A stretch of DNA of 64,000 bases from Minisyncoccia bacterium (GCA_041550235.1 JBFEPE010000001.1:8003-72002); one strand, 5' to 3'. Counted from the first letter of the stretch, positions 3,740-63,870 are shown. Numbers and translations are program-made. Notes: a model not told the origin generated them from the letters alone.

Positions 3740-3880
3740 GGCAGATATAATTCCCCTCTAATAGAGGGGTGGCTCGCCACGAAAGAAATTGCTTTGCAAT
3801 TTCAACGTGGCTGAGACGGGGTGTTTTTCTTATTCTTTAGACCCCCGCCTTCGCGGGGGTGACAAGAGGGGGTATTTCGT
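3740..3880. repeat. Cluster of GC-rich hairpin repeats (dispersed family; reverse-complement copy near 21680-21735)
   Basis: ccctctaatagagggg, gtggctcgccacg..cgtggctgagacggggtg and acccccgccttcgcgggggt. The segment 3765-3825 is the near reverse complement of 21683-21737. Confidence 0.7.
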
Positions 3881-3962
3881 AATTCAAGATTATTATTATA
3901 TTATCAACATTTTTCAATTAGGCAATGAGAATTATTTTTGATATAATATTATTCGATTATAT

Positions 3963-4031
3963 GGGTCCGCCAGGTTTGGGTGATCTGTATTACCACACAG
4001 CATCTTGGGGGTTCGATTCCCCTCGGATCCA
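3963..4031 (+). tRNA. tRNA-like gene (7-bp acceptor stem, canonical T-arm; anticodon arm not cleanly resolved by eye)
   Basis: 5' gggtccg pairs with 3' cggatcc (one G-U). T-arm GGGGG-TTCGATT-CCCCT. D-arm aggt/atct is plausible. The anticodon stem has mismatches, so this may be an atypical tRNA or a pseudogene. Confidence 0.4.
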
Positions 4032-4057
4032 CATAATCTTTATCCACAACTAAACTA

Positions 4058-4090
4058 TTGACAAAAAAATTAAAAGATATACTATAGTAT
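4058..4090 (+). promoter_or_regulatory. Possible sigma70 promoter (TTGACA plus imperfect -10) driving a short transcript that ends at the 4131-4165 terminator
   Basis: Perfect TTGACA at 4058-4063. tatact/tactat lie 14-16 nt downstream. Confidence 0.35.
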
Positions 4091-4130
4091 TATTGGTAAT
4101 ACAGATCTTTCCAAACTTGGATAGATGCTT

Positions 4131-4165
4131 CGCCCTCTCGGGGGCGTTTTTTTATTTATTTTTTA
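4131..4165 (+). terminator. Rho-independent terminator
   Basis: ttcgccctctcgggggcg followed by tttttttattt. Confidence 0.6.
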
Positions 4166-62800: not shown

Positions 62801-63081
62801 CGGCTTATGCTTTGCAAGAAATGCTCACTGTAAAATCAGATGATGTGATGGGAAGGGTTTCTGCTTATGAGGCGATTGTCCGAGGGCAAAAGTTTAGCCC
62901 ACCAAATATTCCAACTTCATTTGATGTATTGATAAATGAGTTGAAGAGTATGGGGTTGAATGTTGAACTTATTGGTGGAACGAAAAAGTTTTTTGATGAT
63001 GATAAGGGAGCGAGAGGTGAGGTAAATGAGATAAGGGGAGAGGCATCAGAAGCATTTTCAGAAGACTCCGAAAGAGAGTAG
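59824..63081 (+). CDS. rpoB: DNA-directed RNA polymerase beta subunit
   Basis: Conserved blocks throughout (GTFIINGVERVVISQ, HRTHYGRICPIQTPEG, NMQRQAV, GGQRFGEMEVWAL). 1085 aa. Confidence 0.95.
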   Translation: MAKKIKVFSSEPDVLEGLKNLPNLCEIQLNSYNWLIKKGFKDLFKEVFPISDYTGNELEIDFDGYFLDQPKFDEISSKEKRLTYEAPLRVNFKLTDKKSKRETKQEVYFGDFPVMTDRGTFIINGVERVVISQIVRSSGLYFTAEMLKGRKHFGAKIIPDRGAWLEFSTGLDRAIYVKIDKKRKIAVSALLRIFGLDSDEKILEAFKGTDIGEVSFIEKTIKKDASKNEEEAFMEIYRRIRPGDLATPESAKSLVEAMFKRDDRYDLSDVGRYKLNQRLGMGDKNNSRQLTIEDLIEVVKIIIESNNDRTKEPDDIDHLGNRRVRAVGEVLLSRIRVGLMRLRRVVQDRMSTYDRETLMPTQLINIRTVMAVVDEFFNTSQLSQFMNQENPLSELEHKRRMSATGPGGLNRKRAGFEVRDVHRTHYGRICPIQTPEGANVGLVSHLSCFSRLNDFGFIETPYFKVENGVITKKLEYLNAWEEENYYIASAGFKKDKNNKITGKEVGGRYKGIPGFYPTSKIQFSDVSPFQIFSIATGLVPFVDHNDANRALMGSNMQRQAVSYVLSQAPLVGTGMEEKAAVDSGQTLVSKDAGEVTEVDANHVKIKNKNGKLKLYNLHNFKRTNQDTCLSQRPIVKVGQKVKEGQVLADSLMTDNGALALGQNLLVAFLSWGGSNYEDAIVLSERVVQEDRFTSMHIEDFYCDVRDTKLGPELTTLDIPNVSLERLKNLDEEGIVRVGAEVGSGDILVGKISPKGETDLTAEERLLRAIFGEKARDVKDTSLTMKHGKRGRIVGIRIFSRENGDKLEPGIIKRIQIQVAQMRRVLAGDKLAGRHGNKGIISKIVPVEDMPYMEDGTPVDIILNPLGVISRMNLGQILETHLGLAASKLGYRAVTPVFAGATEDEIRKELKTAGFPEDGKVVLYDGQTGRAFDQRVVVGYQYMLKLNHMVETKIHMRSIGPYSLITQQPLGGKAQLGGQRFGEMEVWALQGYGAAYALQEMLTVKSDDVMGRVSAYEAIVRGQKFSPPNIPTSFDVLINELKSMGLNVELIGGTKKFFDDDKGARGEVNEIRGEASEAFSEDSERE

Positions 63082-63202
63082 TTATTCTTTAAAAATTAAA
63101 AATCAGATTTCAGGATTTTTTCAGGAGTGGGTTGGTGGGGAAATAAAAAAGGGCAGAGGTTGCTTTTTCTCAAAGCAACATGCCCGGTGAATACGAGATT
63201 AT

Positions 63203-63676
63203 TTAATTTAAAAAATTAAAAGATATTTCGATCTCGGATACCTCTGATAATTCCAATTTGGTGAGACCACTAAAGAAATTGATTAAGGCCAAAGATGGTC
63301 TTTCACATTCATGTCCCAATTTGATTTGTCTTTTCCAAAACCTTCTCTTCTCTAATACCTCTTCAATATGATAGATGTTGTGATAGACCTTATGCTCAGT
63401 TCTTTCAATGACCTTGAGAACTCTTTTCAGATGACCGCCTTCGGGAAATGTGATAATTAACCCCTTATGCATTTTTTCTTTATTAACCATTTGCCTGTAC
63501 TTAATCATTTTTTCGTAGTCGCATAAATATTGAACGATGCAATAAATTGGAATTTCATTATAAGATGAAACAAGGTCGGCTGTTTTTGCCTCAACTAGTT
63601 CATAAAACACGGCACCATTTTCATCAGGCTCCATCTTCCTTAGTTCAAGATTAAGAAATTCTTCTTTTTTACCCAT
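63203..63676 (-). CDS. Hypothetical protein (157 aa) inserted between rpoB and rpoC
   Basis: Same promoter/RBS cassette as 59194..59490. No family recognised. Confidence 0.45.
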   Translation of the reverse strand: MGKKEEFLNLELRKMEPDENGAVFYELVEAKTADLVSSYNEIPIYCIVQYLCDYEKMIKYRQMVNKEKMHKGLIITFPEGGHLKRVLKVIERTEHKVYHNIYHIEEVLEKRRFWKRQIKLGHECERPSLALINFFSGLTKLELSEVSEIEISFNFLN

Positions 63677-63722
63677 TGAAACCTCCTGAAATTAGATTAT
63701 AATAAATAAATTATTTTGTCAA
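63677..63722 (-). promoter_or_regulatory. Promoter/RBS cassette, copy 2 (TTGACA-N15-TATAAT-ctaatttcaggaggt-ATG)
   Basis: Reverse complement of 63677-63722. Confidence 0.55.
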
Positions 63723-63729
63723 TAATATA

Positions 63730-63870
63730 AGCCCTCCTTCGTCCGCCTATGGCGGACTTCGGCGAGGCAAAGTCGTAAATATAATTAGCCACCCTCCTTC
63801 GTCCGCCTATGGCGAACTTCGGCAGGGCAAAGCCCGCCTTCGTTAAAACTTCGGCGAGGCAAAGAAAAAT
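63730..63870. repeat. GC-hairpin repeats ending at the rpoC start
   Basis: Two copies of ctccttcgtccgcctatggcg(g/a)acttcgg(c/g)gagg, then cccgccttcgttaaaacttcggcgaggcaaagaaaaatATG. Confidence 0.75.

What the first reader, a model, noticed from the sequence alone, without database searches (positions are those of the whole stretch)
3740..63870. Dispersed family of GC-rich hairpin repeats (CCCGCC-N4-GGCGGG cores) occupying most intergenic regions of an AT-rich genome, including inside rRNA
More than 20 loci carry short perfect palindromes built on CCCGCC/GGCGGG or CCGCC/GGCGG with 4-nt loops (GTAG, ATAG, TTCG, TCAG, AAAG). They are often extended to ctacccccgcc-gtag-ggcgggggtag and combined with a second motif ccctctaatagagggg.

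Examples: 6182-6210, 6905-7200, 11850-12140, 14936-14965, 20085-20110, 21140-21224, 24556-24590, 25440-25560, 54020-54052, 54770-54845, 58860-59060, 59540-59823, 63730-63870, and even inside a 23S expansion at ~18440-18470.

Segments are reused in both orientations: 3765-3825 is the reverse complement of 21683-21737. This looks like a REP/MITE-like mobile repeat system, possibly doubling as terminators or RNA-stability elements. Such dense coverage is notable for a small genome.
Basis: seen in the sequence. Interest (0 to 1): 0.6.

Follow-up and report, generated by a model that had tools for sequence, protein, structure and literature searches.

The report
REP-like GC-rich palindromic repeat families
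An AT-rich, small-genome bacterium of the Patescibacteria (CPR) has most of its gene spacers, and one 23S rRNA expansion, colonised by several families of short GC-rich hairpin repeats that behave like the selfish 'REP' elements of better-known bacteria; this is a known kind of element in a group where I found no description of it.

Summary
The hairpins are real and far beyond chance, but the loop is 3 nt, not 4. CCGCC-N3-GGCGG gives 19 hits against 0 expected.

They are not one family. There are at least four interleaved ones:
- (A) ten untagged perfect hairpins with 10-17 bp stems.
- (B) nine clean and two loop-expanded TGTC-tagged hairpins (8-bp stem, 4-nt loop) that largely fit the published CGTC-1 REP type (Neisseria dRS3, Rickettsia RPE-6).
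- (C) eleven 31-63-nt units, CCCGCC-TTCG-(inner stem or nested hairpin)-CTTC-GGCGRG-CRARG. Five end 6-7 nt before a start codon.
- Small TCCGCC-N3-GGCGGA and CCCTCTAATAGAGGGG modules that build mosaics.

They occupy 17 of 27 spacers in 1-27.6 and 53.9-64 kb, and none of 14 spacers in 27.7-53.9 kb, which includes an 18-kb island.

A strain about 96% identical differs from the window in element content in every comparable spacer, including nested insertions in hairpin loops. No hairpin is followed by a T-tract, and no transposase gene lies in the window.

The family C core recurs in at least 120 metagenome contigs (29-72% GC). There it often sits in-frame inside housekeeping genes or at tRNA ends.

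Verdict: REP-type selfish palindromic DNA, a new member of a known kind. Family C may be an unclassified superfamily.

The parts
6182..6210 (.). Family A perfect hairpin, CATACCCCCCGCC-GTA-GGCGGGGGGTATG (13-bp stem), between convergent genes
   Evidence: RNA fold -28.3 kcal/mol, z -4.4
12119..12149 (.). Family A hairpin (14-bp stem, GTA loop), 35 nt upstream of alaS
14933..14965 (.). Family A hairpin, ATTCCCTCCCCCGCC-GTA-... (15-bp stem), 50 nt upstream of 23S rRNA
18438..18471 (.). Family A hairpin (15-bp stem, ATAC loop) at the tip of a 166-nt expansion inside 23S rRNA
20087..20110 (.). Family A-like hairpin, ACCACCGCCC-ATTC-GGGCGGTGGT, 6 nt after the ASCH ORF and upstream of 5S
21140..21223 (.). 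Two adjacent family A hairpins (15- and 17-bp stems, GTA loops) between trmD and ybaB
24560..24592 (.). Family A hairpin (15-bp stem, TAC loop), 31 nt after a Mur-ligase gene
54015..54049 (.). Family A hairpin (16-bp stem, TCT loop) in a divergent spacer
   Evidence: -40.5 kcal/mol, z -7.1
59600..59628 (.). Family A hairpin (13-bp stem, TTC loop) between two family B copies
3838..3864 (-). Family B (CGTC-1-type REP): TGTC-ACCCCCGC-GAAG-GCGGGGGT-CTA
6984..7010 (-). Family B copy: TGTC-ATTCCTGC-GAAA-GCAGGAAT-CTA
25416..25444 (+). Family B copy: TGTC-ATTTCTGC-GAAG-GCAGAAAT-CTAAA
25455..25538 (-). Mosaic: family B-like outer arms with the loop filled by nested CCGCC-N3-GGCGG hairpins plus a TAATAC tail
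54766..54836 (-). Family B copy, TGTC-ATTCCCG...CGGGGAAT-CTC, whose loop holds two nested hairpins (TCCGCC-TGA-GGCGGA-TAATAC and CCCGCC-TAT-GGCGGG)
58886..58972 (.). Pair of family B copies in inverted orientation with tags outside (58886-58914 on +, 58946-58972 on -)
59018..59046 (+). Family B copy: TGTC-GCCTCCGC-GAAG-GCGGAGGT-CTAAA
59541..59567 (-). Family B copy, 100% identical over 35 nt to the copy at 58946-58980
59662..59745 (.). Second pair of inverted family B copies with tags outside (59662-59690 on +, 59719-59745 on -)
11931..12009 (+). Two family C units. The first has a nested TCCGCC-TAT-GGCAGA hairpin as its inner stem
21741..21836 (+). Three head-to-tail 32-nt family C units (CCCGCCTTCGTTAAAACTTCGGCGAGGCGAAA) ending 6 nt before the aspS ATG
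56321..56351 (+). Family C unit ending 7 nt before the probable true rplM start at 56359. L002 has an extra nested insert of about 35 nt here
56714..56776 (+). Family C unit with a second family C-like unit nested in its apical loop, ending 7 nt before the rpsI ATG. Absent from the sister strain L002
59765..59817 (+). Family C unit in the rpoB leader. It carries a 22-nt nested insert (TAGAATA-TCCGCC-TCT-GGCGGA, 59780-59801) that L002 lacks
63732..63864 (+). Three family C units (two with nested TCCGCC-TAT-GGCGRA hairpins) ending 6 nt before the rpoC ATG at 63871
3745..3829 (+). Composite D: ATATAATTCC-CCTCTAATAGAGGGG-TGG-(variable long hairpin)-CGGGGTGTT
6912..6959 (.). Two small hairpins, TCCGCC-AAA-GGCGGA(TAATAC) and CCCGCC-TTT-GGCGGG
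7120..7200 (+). Composite D containing CCGCC-ATA-GGCGG, CCCTCTAATAGAGGGG and TCCGCC-TCA-GGCGGA
11974..12105 (-). Composite D in reverse orientation. It overlaps a family C unit and holds CCGCC-TAT-GGCGG at 12083-12095
21683..21740 (-). Partial composite D, the reverse complement of 3765-3825
20168..20184 (.). CCCCTCTATAAGAGGGG hairpin module, a variant of the CCCTCTAATAGAGGGG motif
27125..27243 (+). CCCGCC-GAA-GGCGGG-CGAAG and its G-T variant, embedded in tandem ~104-nt tRNA-Thr-derived repeats

Best explanation
These are REP-type selfish palindromic repeats that have multiplied in the chromosome of a Patescibacteria (Ca. Paceibacteria) lineage. There are at least four interleaved families, A, B, C and small hairpin modules.

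Shown here:
- The copies are short GC-rich stem-loops, overwhelmingly intergenic.
- In family B the stem is kept by compensatory changes, while a one-sided tag (TGTC), the loop (GAAG) and a tail stay fixed.
- Units sit inside the loops of other units, giving mosaics like the BIME and NIME repeat mosaics of E. coli and Neisseria.
- Content turns over fast. A strain about 96% identical differs at every comparable spacer.
- A recently integrated 18-kb island has none.

Inferred:
- New copies arise at the DNA level through single-stranded hairpin intermediates. The model is REP/RAYT (REP-associated tyrosine transposase) and IS200/IS605 'peel-and-paste' transposition, catalysed by an HUH-type enzyme encoded outside this window or supplied in trans.
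- Hairpin loops and AT-rich spacers are the tolerated or preferred targets.
- The shared CCGCC/GGCGG cores additionally allow recombination or template switching that shuffles modules.
- Once fixed, the elements are transcribed within UTRs. The very stable family A hairpins probably protect transcript ends. Family C hairpins sit just upstream of the unstructured, Shine-Dalgarno-less AAAAAT-ATG start context without occluding it. These RNA effects are secondary, not the reason the elements exist.
For: - Enrichment: 19 against 0 expected, and 21 against 0.04. Tag plus 8-bp stem plus 4-5-nt loop: 10 hits (9 in the family) against 0.7 in simulations.
- Family B alignment: 98.4% of cells paired, 4 of 8 pairs with double compensatory changes, TGTC invariant. 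This largely matches the CGTC-1 description in PMC3733652.
- Inverted pairs with tags outside at 58886/58972 and 59662/59745.
- Nested units: 59780-59801, 56714-56776, 54766-54836.
- Strain comparison with L002, where genes are 95-96% identical. The rplM-rpsI element is absent in L002. A 22-nt insert is present only in the window's rpoB leader. An insert of about 35 nt and a 95-nt family A-containing insert are present only in L002. About 1 kb against about 110 nt lies upstream of rpoB.
- 0 of 14 spacers occupied in 27.7-53.9 kb against 17 of 27 elsewhere.
- 79 other rpoB loci (1.6 Mb) contain no family C and almost no CCGCC-N3-GGCGG.
- All 11 family C units share one orientation on the G-rich strand of this window. 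A strand-specific ssDNA mechanism would predict this.
- The family B 24-mer and the family C 26-mer recur in at least 120 viral/proviral and at least 120 metagenome contigs respectively.
- Family C occurs in-frame inside ThyA, enolase, an IscS-like protein, MetAP, MiaB and QueA and at tRNA ends (10 of 123 against about 0.4% expected). This is the behaviour of an inserting element.
Against: - No Y1/HUH transposase among the 64 window ORFs scanned with Pfam.
- The literature says CGTC REPs have no known dedicated transposase.
- Filled and empty sites are not clean. At rplM-rpsI the flanks also differ, and no target-site duplication is seen. Replacement by recombination is therefore as compatible as transposition.
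- Family A has no tag at all.
- All family C copies are sense to the downstream gene, and five stop 6-7 nt before an ATG. That could reflect a selected function rather than insertion bias.
- Only 64 kb plus 12 kb of this lineage was available.
Confidence: 0.7

Rival explanations
1. There is no transposase. The mosaic is produced by the replication and repair machinery. Hairpins extruded on single-stranded DNA promote template switching, slippage and gene conversion between units that share the CCGCC/GGCGG core. This would extend palindromes, swap hairpin tips and make tandem arrays.
For: - Perfect 13-17-bp palindromes whose outer arms differ between copies while both arms always match.
- Inner stems swapped as cassettes within an unchanged family C frame (AA, against CGCCTATGGCG, against a whole unit).
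- Head-to-tail 32-nt arrays with no spacer.
- Filled and empty sites without target duplications and with altered flanks.
- No transposase found.
- Family C overlapping the first 4-5 nt (GCGGG) of tRNA-Gly/Pro genes, as if the resident sequence served as one arm.
Against: - It does not explain arrival at new, unrelated loci, such as inside ThyA or enolase in other organisms.
- It does not explain the invariant one-sided tags (TGTC in B; C-A-R-G after family C in most of 120 copies, with random sequence on the other side).
- It does not explain near-identical sequences in organisms of 29-72% GC.
Confidence: 0.3
2. The hairpins are primarily functional RNA elements evolved or retained for gene expression. 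Candidate roles are U-tract-independent terminators or roadblocks, protection against 3' exonucleases, RNase processing sites between cistrons, or 5' leader hairpins for SD-less translation starts.
For: - Extreme stability of family A (-28 to -40 kcal/mol).
- Family C always sense to the downstream gene. In 5 genes (aspS, rplM, rpsI, rpoB, rpoC) it ends 6-7 nt before the ATG, with the start region predicted single-stranded.
- Compensatory changes keep the stems.
- REP literature reports G-T pairs and effects on mRNA.
Against: - Not conserved even between strains about 96% identical. rpsI has the element in one strain and not in the other.
- Positions are scattered over convergent, divergent and co-directional spacers. 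About half the hairpins lie in divergent spacers, where no transcript ends.
- No T-tract follows any of them, while ordinary hairpin-plus-T-run sites are visible elsewhere in the same spacers.
- Family C folds are not unusually stable (z -0.5 to -2).
- The same units occur inside coding sequences in both orientations elsewhere.
- None lies in the 26 kb from 27.7 to 53.9 kb, which includes the native rnpA-yidC-jag genes.
Confidence: 0.15
3. Family C is the operator of a DNA- or RNA-binding regulator that coordinates transcription and translation genes (rpoB, rpoC, rplM, rpsI, aspS).
For: The same motif lies at a fixed distance from five start codons of information-processing genes. It has a conserved UUC/UUC internal loop framed by conserved stems.
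Against: - Absent from rpsI in the sister strain.
- Present as tandem triplets and about 180 nt upstream of alaS.
- Found inside coding regions and at tRNA ends in unrelated organisms.
- The AAAAAT-ATG context is generic to this genome, not part of the motif.
Confidence: 0.05
4. Assembly or sequencing artefact, for example chimeric joins at low-complexity GC hairpins.
For: Short Logan contigs end inside or beside elements.
Against: - Independently assembled Logan contigs are 100% identical across elements.
- A MAG (metagenome-assembled genome) from a separate record carries the same families at partly different sites.
- Elements are shorter than assembly k-mers.
- In-frame copies are flanked by continuous protein domains.
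Confidence: 0.01

Closest known systems
CGTC-tagged REPs, family CGTC-1 (Di Nocera et al. 2013, PMC3733652). The paper equates them with Neisseria dRS3 and Rickettsia conorii RPE-6
   Same: Sub-family B has a TGTC tag (a variant the paper lists), an 8-bp stem usually starting AT, a 4-nt loop and a short unpaired tail. It forms inverted pairs with tags outside and occurs in clusters. Three copies read ATTCCC-N8-GGGAAT, which is the dRS3 consensus as I recall it. No dedicated transposase is known or found.
   Different: The host is a Patescibacteria genome of about 33% GC. The paper lists Proteobacteria, Chlorobi, Bacteroidetes, Spirochaetes and Thermotogae. The tail is CTA/CTC rather than CCA. 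The second stem position is C-G in 4 of 9 copies. Two copies have loops expanded by nested foreign hairpins.
GTAG-tagged REPs, BIMEs and REPINs mobilised by RAYT (Y1 HUH) transposases (PMC2817692, PMC3116915)
   Same: Short GC-rich imperfect palindromes, dispersed in spacers, clustered into mosaics, with stems kept by compensatory change and some families having complex self-complementary loops. The likely ssDNA-hairpin biology is shared.
   Different: There is no terminal unpaired GTAG. GTAG appears only as the loop plus first stem base in CCGCC-GTA-GGCGG. The arm next to the family C tag is C-rich, not G-rich as in GTAG-GGCGGG...CCCGCC REPs. No RAYT gene lies in the window.
Rickettsia palindromic elements (RPEs) and other intragenic REPs
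   Same: These are palindromic repeats in a reduced, AT-rich genome that also land in structural RNA. Family C relatives sit in-frame inside housekeeping protein genes in other AT-rich contigs.
   Different: In this window no copy lies inside a protein gene. The units are shorter than most RPEs (15-63 nt here, against about 100-150 nt from memory).
MITEs (for example Correia/NEMIS, Nezha)
   Same: Non-autonomous, dispersed, and polymorphic between strains.
   Different: There are no terminal inverted repeats bounding a distinct core, no target-site duplications at three filled/empty comparisons, and most units are under 50 nt.
Rho-independent terminators
   Same: GC-rich hairpins in spacers, some just after stop codons (20087, 24560).
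   Different: No T/U tract follows any copy. Many lie upstream of genes or in divergent spacers.
GC clusters of yeast mitochondrial DNA (from memory, not tested)
   Same: Short GC-rich palindromic, apparently mobile clusters scattered through the spacers, and sometimes the genes and rRNA, of a very AT-rich small genome.
   Different: Unrelated host and sequence. No evidence of a shared mechanism.

Membership tests
REP (repetitive extragenic palindrome), broad sense | Short (about 20-40 bp) GC-rich imperfect palindrome able to form a stem-loop | tested here: met
   Folds.
REP (repetitive extragenic palindrome), broad sense | Many dispersed copies, predominantly intergenic | tested here: met
   At least 45 units in 17 spacers plus one in 23S. 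Only a few unrelated chance hairpins lie in coding sequence. Genome-wide copy number could not be tested.
REP (repetitive extragenic palindrome), broad sense | Organisation in inverted dimers, clusters or mosaics (BIME/NIME-like) | tested here: met
   Pairs with tags outside at 58886/58972 and 59662/59745. Clusters at 58.9-59.8 kb, 11.9-12.15 kb and 63.7-63.9 kb. Composite D occurs four times.
REP (repetitive extragenic palindrome), broad sense | Associated RAYT (Y1/HUH) transposase gene | tested here: inconclusive
   None among the 64 window ORFs scanned (Pfam). None in 11,684 open frames of element-bearing loci using a from-memory IS200 TnpA query. The rest of the genome was not available.
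CGTC-1 REP (Di Nocera 2013), for sub-family B | Terminal CGTC tag (TGTC or CCTC variants allowed) | tested here: met
   TGTC in 9 of 9 window copies and in the L043 copy.
CGTC-1 REP (Di Nocera 2013), for sub-family B | 8-bp stem and 4-nt loop | tested here: met
   9 of 9 copies. 98.4% of cells paired. Loops are GAAG (7 copies), GAAA and GGAG.
CGTC-1 REP (Di Nocera 2013), for sub-family B | Complementary A/T residues in the first and second stem positions | tested here: inconclusive
   First pair is A-T in 8 of 9 copies (one G-T). Second pair is T-A in 5 of 9 and C-G in 4 of 9.
CGTC-1 REP (Di Nocera 2013), for sub-family B | Short unpaired tail, consensus CCA | tested here: inconclusive
   A tail is present but reads CTA or CTC in the window. 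It reads CCA in the L043 copy.
GTAG-tagged REP / REPIN | Unpaired terminal GTAG next to the stem | tested here: not met
   Families A and C have no terminal GTAG. In most of 120 family C copies the one-sided tail is C-A-R-G, with the other flank random.
MITE | Terminal inverted repeats flanking a core, with target-site duplication | tested here: not met
   Window against L002 filled and empty sites show no duplications. The units are simple palindromes.
RPE-like intragenic palindromic insertion | In-frame insertion inside protein-coding genes | tested here: not met
   No copy lies in a protein gene in this window. The feature is met for family C relatives elsewhere: ThyA, enolase, aminotransferase V, MetAP, MiaB, QueA.
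Rho-independent terminator | GC-rich hairpin immediately followed by a T/U tract | tested here: not met
   At most 4 T in the 9 nt after any family hairpin, and no run, on either strand.
CRISPR array | Regularly spaced repeats separated by unique spacers | tested here: not met
   The only regular array (21741-21836) has 32-nt units abutting with no spacer.
Any Rfam 15 RNA family | Match at the family's gathering score | tested here: not met
   Only LSU rRNA, 5S, tRNA and LOOT pass in the whole window.

The most novel reading that the evidence does not exclude
Family C (CCCGCC-TTCG-YYAARR-CTTC-GGCGGG-CARG) may be a third, so far unclassified superfamily of tagged palindromic elements, distinct from the GTAG and CGTC superfamilies.

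What supports this reading:
- It circulates among many uncultured lineages. Contigs carrying it span 29-72% GC.
- It inserts in-frame into housekeeping protein genes.
- It docks onto tRNA gene ends, re-using the tRNA's GCGGG as one arm.
- It nests in its own loop.
- In this Patescibacteria lineage it has expanded to sit directly in front of the start codons of rpoB, rpoC, rplM, rpsI and aspS.

If the reading is right, its tag and target rules could expose the still unknown mobilisation mechanism of transposase-less REPs.
Probability: 0.35. Interest if true: 0.6.

Novelty: new member of a known kind. Interest (0 to 1): 0.45.

Why it matters
1. Patescibacteria are regarded as streamlined, yet this one tolerates selfish palindromic DNA in most spacers, in rRNA expansions and directly against essential start codons. 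About 4% of the roughly 37 kb outside the element-free zone is element sequence.
2. The elements turn over between strains about 96% identical. They are therefore fine-scale strain markers and a cause of contig breaks and mis-called starts. The longest-ORF call for L13 starts at 56281, while the start supported by the Pfam match is 56359.
3. One sub-family extends the CGTC-1/dRS3 REP type to a group the 2013 survey did not list. CGTC REPs have no known transposase, so a tiny genome that carries them is a good place to look for the enzyme.
4. Family C links many uncultured genomes and decorates real proteins, which matters for annotation and for tracing horizontal spread.

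Tried and rejected
- The literal N4 motif: 0 hits.
- Rfam at gathering score: nothing on the elements. Weak sub-threshold hits (WsnRNA46, two plant miRNA precursors) on the AT-rich 23S palindrome were ignored.
- Canonical terminators: rejected, no T-tracts.
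- MITE and CRISPR: rejected.
- A single 'cloverleaf' ncRNA reading of composite D: rejected. Its modules are swapped or missing between copies.
- AAAAAT-ATG as part of family C: rejected. It is the generic start context of this genome.
- The two small minus-strand ORFs beside rpoB as RAYT candidates: no Pfam hit, and they are unrelated to each other.
- More sister-strain loci by exact-protein look-ups: this returned only Logan contigs from a single run, identical to the window.
- Literature searches by DNA or peptide strings and by REP plus Patescibacteria terms: nothing relevant. The supplements of PMC3733652 hold no matching sequences.
- Plasmid collection: only one imperfect hit to family C.
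- 79 other rpoB loci: no family C.
- Transposase search with a from-memory IS200 TnpA: no hits, low sensitivity.
- G-T against A-C mismatch asymmetry as an RNA-against-DNA test: too few imperfect stems to decide.

Full report
OBSERVATION

The window is 33% GC.

With the corrected motif, CCGCC-N3-GGCGG occurs 19 times against 0.00 expected. CGCC-N3-GGCG occurs 21 times against 0.04 expected. CCCTCTAATAGAGGGG occurs twice exactly, plus variants. 3765-3825 is indeed the reverse complement of 21683-21737.

Two independently assembled Logan contigs, both from run SRR29257546, are 100% identical to the window across several elements. The elements are therefore not assembly noise.

CONTEXT

The genes are ordinary bacterial housekeeping genes: ftsA, dnaB, cysS, pth, dus, alaS, aspS, mur ligases, rpoA, rplQ, rplM, rpsI, rpoB, rpoC, rnpA, yidC.

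The closest genome record is a Candidatus Paceibacteria MAG (locus L002, RpoB 99% identical). All other RpoB relatives are at most 59% identical and are mostly Patescibacteria.

The 23S rRNA is 4413 nt against a 2925-column model. The hairpin at 18438-18471 is the tip of a 166-nt expansion where the model has 20 nt. The whole expansion folds into one long hairpin (z = -10).

Most genes start with an SD-less ...AAAAAT-ATG context.

ANATOMY

The repeats are not one family.

- Family A has ten perfect hairpins with 10-17-bp stems, a variable outer part, a C-run and GCC, and a 3-4-nt loop. It has no conserved flank. Folding energies are -28 to -40 kcal/mol.
- Family B has nine copies of TGTC + 8-bp stem + GAAG + stem' + CTA/CTC, four on the plus strand and five on the minus strand. 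Two pairs are inverted with the tags outside. Two further copies (25455-25538, 54766-54836) have loops filled with other hairpins. In an alignment, 98.4% of stem cells pair and 4 of 8 pairs show double compensatory changes, while tag, loop and tail are almost invariant. Tag-plus-hairpin hits number 10 against 0.7 in simulations.
- Family C has eleven units of CCCGCC-TTCG-(inner part)-CTTC-GGCGRG-CRARG. The inner part is a 3-bp stem (GTC-AA-GAC, GTT-AA-AAC or GCC-AA-GGC), a nested TCCGCC-N3-GGCGGA hairpin, or a whole second unit. All eleven lie on the plus strand. Three form a head-to-tail 32-nt array.
- Five family C units end 6-7 nt before the ATG of aspS, rplM, rpsI, rpoB and rpoC. For rplM, the Pfam match begins at residue 30 of the longest ORF, which supports the start at 56359.
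- Small modules, TCCGCC-N3-GGCGGA (often followed by TAATAC) and CCCTCTAATAGAGGGG, are combined into composite D. Composite D occurs four times in either orientation, with modules swapped or missing.

DISTRIBUTION IN THE WINDOW

Elements occupy 17 of 27 spacers of at least 40 nt in 1-27.6 kb and 53.9-64 kb. They occupy none of the 14 spacers in 27.7-53.9 kb (p = 1e-4). No perfect GC-rich hairpin exists there at all.

That empty zone has three parts. The first is an 18-kb island inserted in the resident tRNA-Thr, which carries integrases, a methylase, a KAP NTPase, a UvrD-like helicase and GmrSD. The second is a further low-GC variable stretch. The third is the native jag-yidC-rnpA cluster. The contrast is therefore suggestive of 'old chromosome against recent arrival', but it is not a clean test.

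Hairpins lie in convergent, divergent and co-directional spacers alike. None is followed by a T-tract. Ordinary hairpin-plus-T-run sites can be seen elsewhere in the same spacers, for example around 1770-1795 and 4131-4155.

TURNOVER BETWEEN STRAINS

L002 aligns to window 54.9-63.2 kb at 95-96% identity within genes. The alignment breaks at the spacers.

- The rplM-rpsI spacer has a 63-nt nested family C element in the window and none in L002.
- The rpoB leader has a 22-nt insert (TAGAATA-TCCGCC-TCT-GGCGGA) in the loop of the family C unit only in the window.
- At the rplQ/rplM junction, L002 has an extra nested insert of about 35 nt.
- Upstream of rpoB, the window has about 1 kb (a small ORF plus about ten elements). 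L002 has about 110 nt with a composite D unit instead.
- Immediately before rpoA, L002 has a 95-nt insert containing a family A hairpin that the window lacks. The window has a family B mosaic further upstream.

Every comparable spacer differs in element content. The junctions show no target duplications, and at rplM-rpsI the flanks differ too.

ELSEWHERE

Seventy-nine other rpoB loci (1.6 Mb) carry no family C and virtually no CCGCC-N3-GGCGG. Thirty-seven of 46 AT-rich loci have no strong GC hairpin at all. One Patescibacteria locus (L043) has a textbook TGTC-ATCCCCGC-GAAG-GCGGGGAT-CCA unit.

The family C 26-mer (CCCGCCTTCGYYAARRCTTCGGCGRG) is present in at least 120 metagenome contigs of 29-72% GC, usually once per contig. 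It is present in 7 viral contigs. It is essentially absent from the plasmid collection.

Across 120 copies the upstream flank is random, but the downstream flank reads C-A-R-G, often followed by CCCGC. That is a palindrome with a one-sided tag, as in REPs, but the tag is neither GTAG nor CGTC.

In AT-rich contigs many copies lie in long open frames in both orientations. Six were confirmed as real genes interrupted in-frame: ThyA, enolase, class-V aminotransferase, MetAP, MiaB and QueA.

Ten of 123 copies abut or overlap a tRNA end, against about 0.4% expected. Six overlap the first 4-5 nt (GCGGG) of tRNA-Gly/Pro.

The host phyla of these contigs were not determined. Only their GC range shows that they come from many different organisms.

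WHAT IT IS

Sub-family B largely fits the published description of CGTC-1 REPs. [quoted passage not shown] The paper equates the type with Neisseria dRS3 and R. conorii RPE-6.

The same paper documents REP families shared by distant phyla, complex self-complementary loops, clusters, intragenic REPs, and the lack of a dedicated transposase for CGTC REPs.

The whole system therefore reads as a REP-type repeat complement. It has a mosaic organisation like the BIME and NIME repeat mosaics of E. coli and Neisseria. Its host group was not mentioned in the REP papers I could search.

HOW IT MOST LIKELY WORKS

Shown here:
- structure-preserving evolution with fixed tags;
- nesting in loops;
- strain-level gain and loss;
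- absence from the island;
- insertion-like behaviour of family C in other genomes.

Inferred: spread occurs through single-stranded hairpin DNA handled by an HUH-type enzyme, as for REP/RAYT and IS200/IS605, encoded elsewhere or supplied in trans. The uniform orientation of all 11 family C units on the G-rich strand fits a strand-specific ssDNA process. It equally fits transcriptional selection.

The main rival is enzyme-free template switching or gene conversion between units sharing CCGCC/GGCGG cores. This accounts well for the perfect long palindromes, cassette-like tips, tandem arrays and unclean junctions. It does not account for fixed one-sided tags or for arrival at unrelated sites. 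Probably both processes operate.

A primary RNA function is unlikely. The elements are not conserved between near-identical strains, have no U-tracts, and lie in every kind of spacer. Secondary effects on transcript stability or on SD-less initiation remain plausible. Predicted folds leave CGAAGAAAAAAUAUG single-stranded.

LIMITS

- Only 64 kb plus 12 kb of this lineage was available.
- The transposase search outside the window was weak.
- 'Not described' rests on the searchable literature only.

VERDICT

This is a new member of a known kind, of moderate interest. Family C is the part most worth following up.

Noticed in passing
window 27457-45600: An 18-kb island (27495-45551) is inserted in the anticodon-loop region of the resident tRNA-Thr(GGT). 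The 5' half of that tRNA is at 27457-27494 and the 3' half at 45552-45600. The island brings its own intact tRNA-Thr (27651-27725). It also carries two tyrosine integrases, an N6-methylase/Eco57I-like gene, a KAP NTPase, a UvrD-like helicase, GmrSD+Schlafen and a LOOT RNA (29418-29539). It looks like a defence island.
   Followed up: partly
window 27113-27456: Three tandem units of about 104 nt. Each is built from the first 13 nt of tRNA-Thr (GCCAATGTAGCTC), a CCCGCC-GAA-GGCGGG-CGAAG hairpin and an anticodon-arm-like end. They may be remnants of earlier integrations, invaded by the hairpin family.
   Followed up: partly
window 15345-15451 and 17800-17905: The same AT-rich palindromic element of about 107 nt (ends CCCAGCCCCAGTTTTT / AAAAACTGGGGCTGGG) sits at the tips of two different 23S rRNA helices, near model positions 283-288 and 1887-1907. 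One 53-nt stretch is 100% identical between the two copies. This is a second kind of repeated insertion inside the rRNA.
   Followed up: partly
window 17409-17756: A GIY-YIG endonuclease ORF lies inside the 23S rRNA gene (Pfam E = 3.7e-18). This suggests a homing-endonuclease-bearing insertion or intron. The 23S carries about 1.5 kb of extra sequence in total. An ASCH-domain ORF lies between 23S and 5S, and no 16S lies upstream.
   Followed up: no
window 59491-59537 and 63677-63723; L002 about 11840-11885: An identical promoter-plus-SD cassette of about 45 nt (ATTGACAAAAYAATTT.T.TATTATAATCTRATTTCAGGAGGT) drives unrelated small minus-strand ORFs upstream of rpoB (98 aa) and between rpoB and rpoC (157 aa). 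The sister strain has a different ORF behind the same cassette. None of the ORFs has a Pfam match. This is a variable gene slot inside the rpoBC region.
   Followed up: partly
window 3963-4037: A tRNA-like sequence with a paired acceptor stem (GGGTCCG/CGGATCC) and a canonical T-arm (GGGGGTTCGATTCCCCT), preceded by GATATAAT. ARAGORN and Rfam do not call it, and the D and anticodon regions are aberrant.
   Followed up: no
window 45628-45710 and 48274-48356 (also 36089-36123): An 83-nt direct repeat, 83% identical, containing TTAAAATATATA...TTTAGAGGGCAAAAGCCCCTGCTCT. It looks like a repeated promoter-and-hairpin module in the low-GC variable region.
   Followed up: no
whole window, gene starts: Most genes lack a Shine-Dalgarno sequence and start with ...AAAAAT-ATG. 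A minority have GGAGG. The longest-ORF start for rplM (56281) is probably wrong; 56359 fits the Pfam match and this start context.
   Followed up: partly
L120, L132, L135, L136, L184, L185 (metagenome loci): Family C units overlap the first 4-5 nt (GCGGG) of tRNA-Gly/Pro genes, so the tRNA 5' end doubles as one arm of the palindrome. Upstream, GCGGG-CTTG precedes the unit, so it is flanked by a GCGGG direct repeat. This may be a target-site signature.
   Followed up: partly
window 3866-3895, 54836-54875; L002 1825-1860: A further shared motif, TATTTCGTAATTCRAR, follows family A or B hairpins at about 20-30 nt in three places. Some hairpins may be the ends of longer units of about 100 nt.
   Followed up: no
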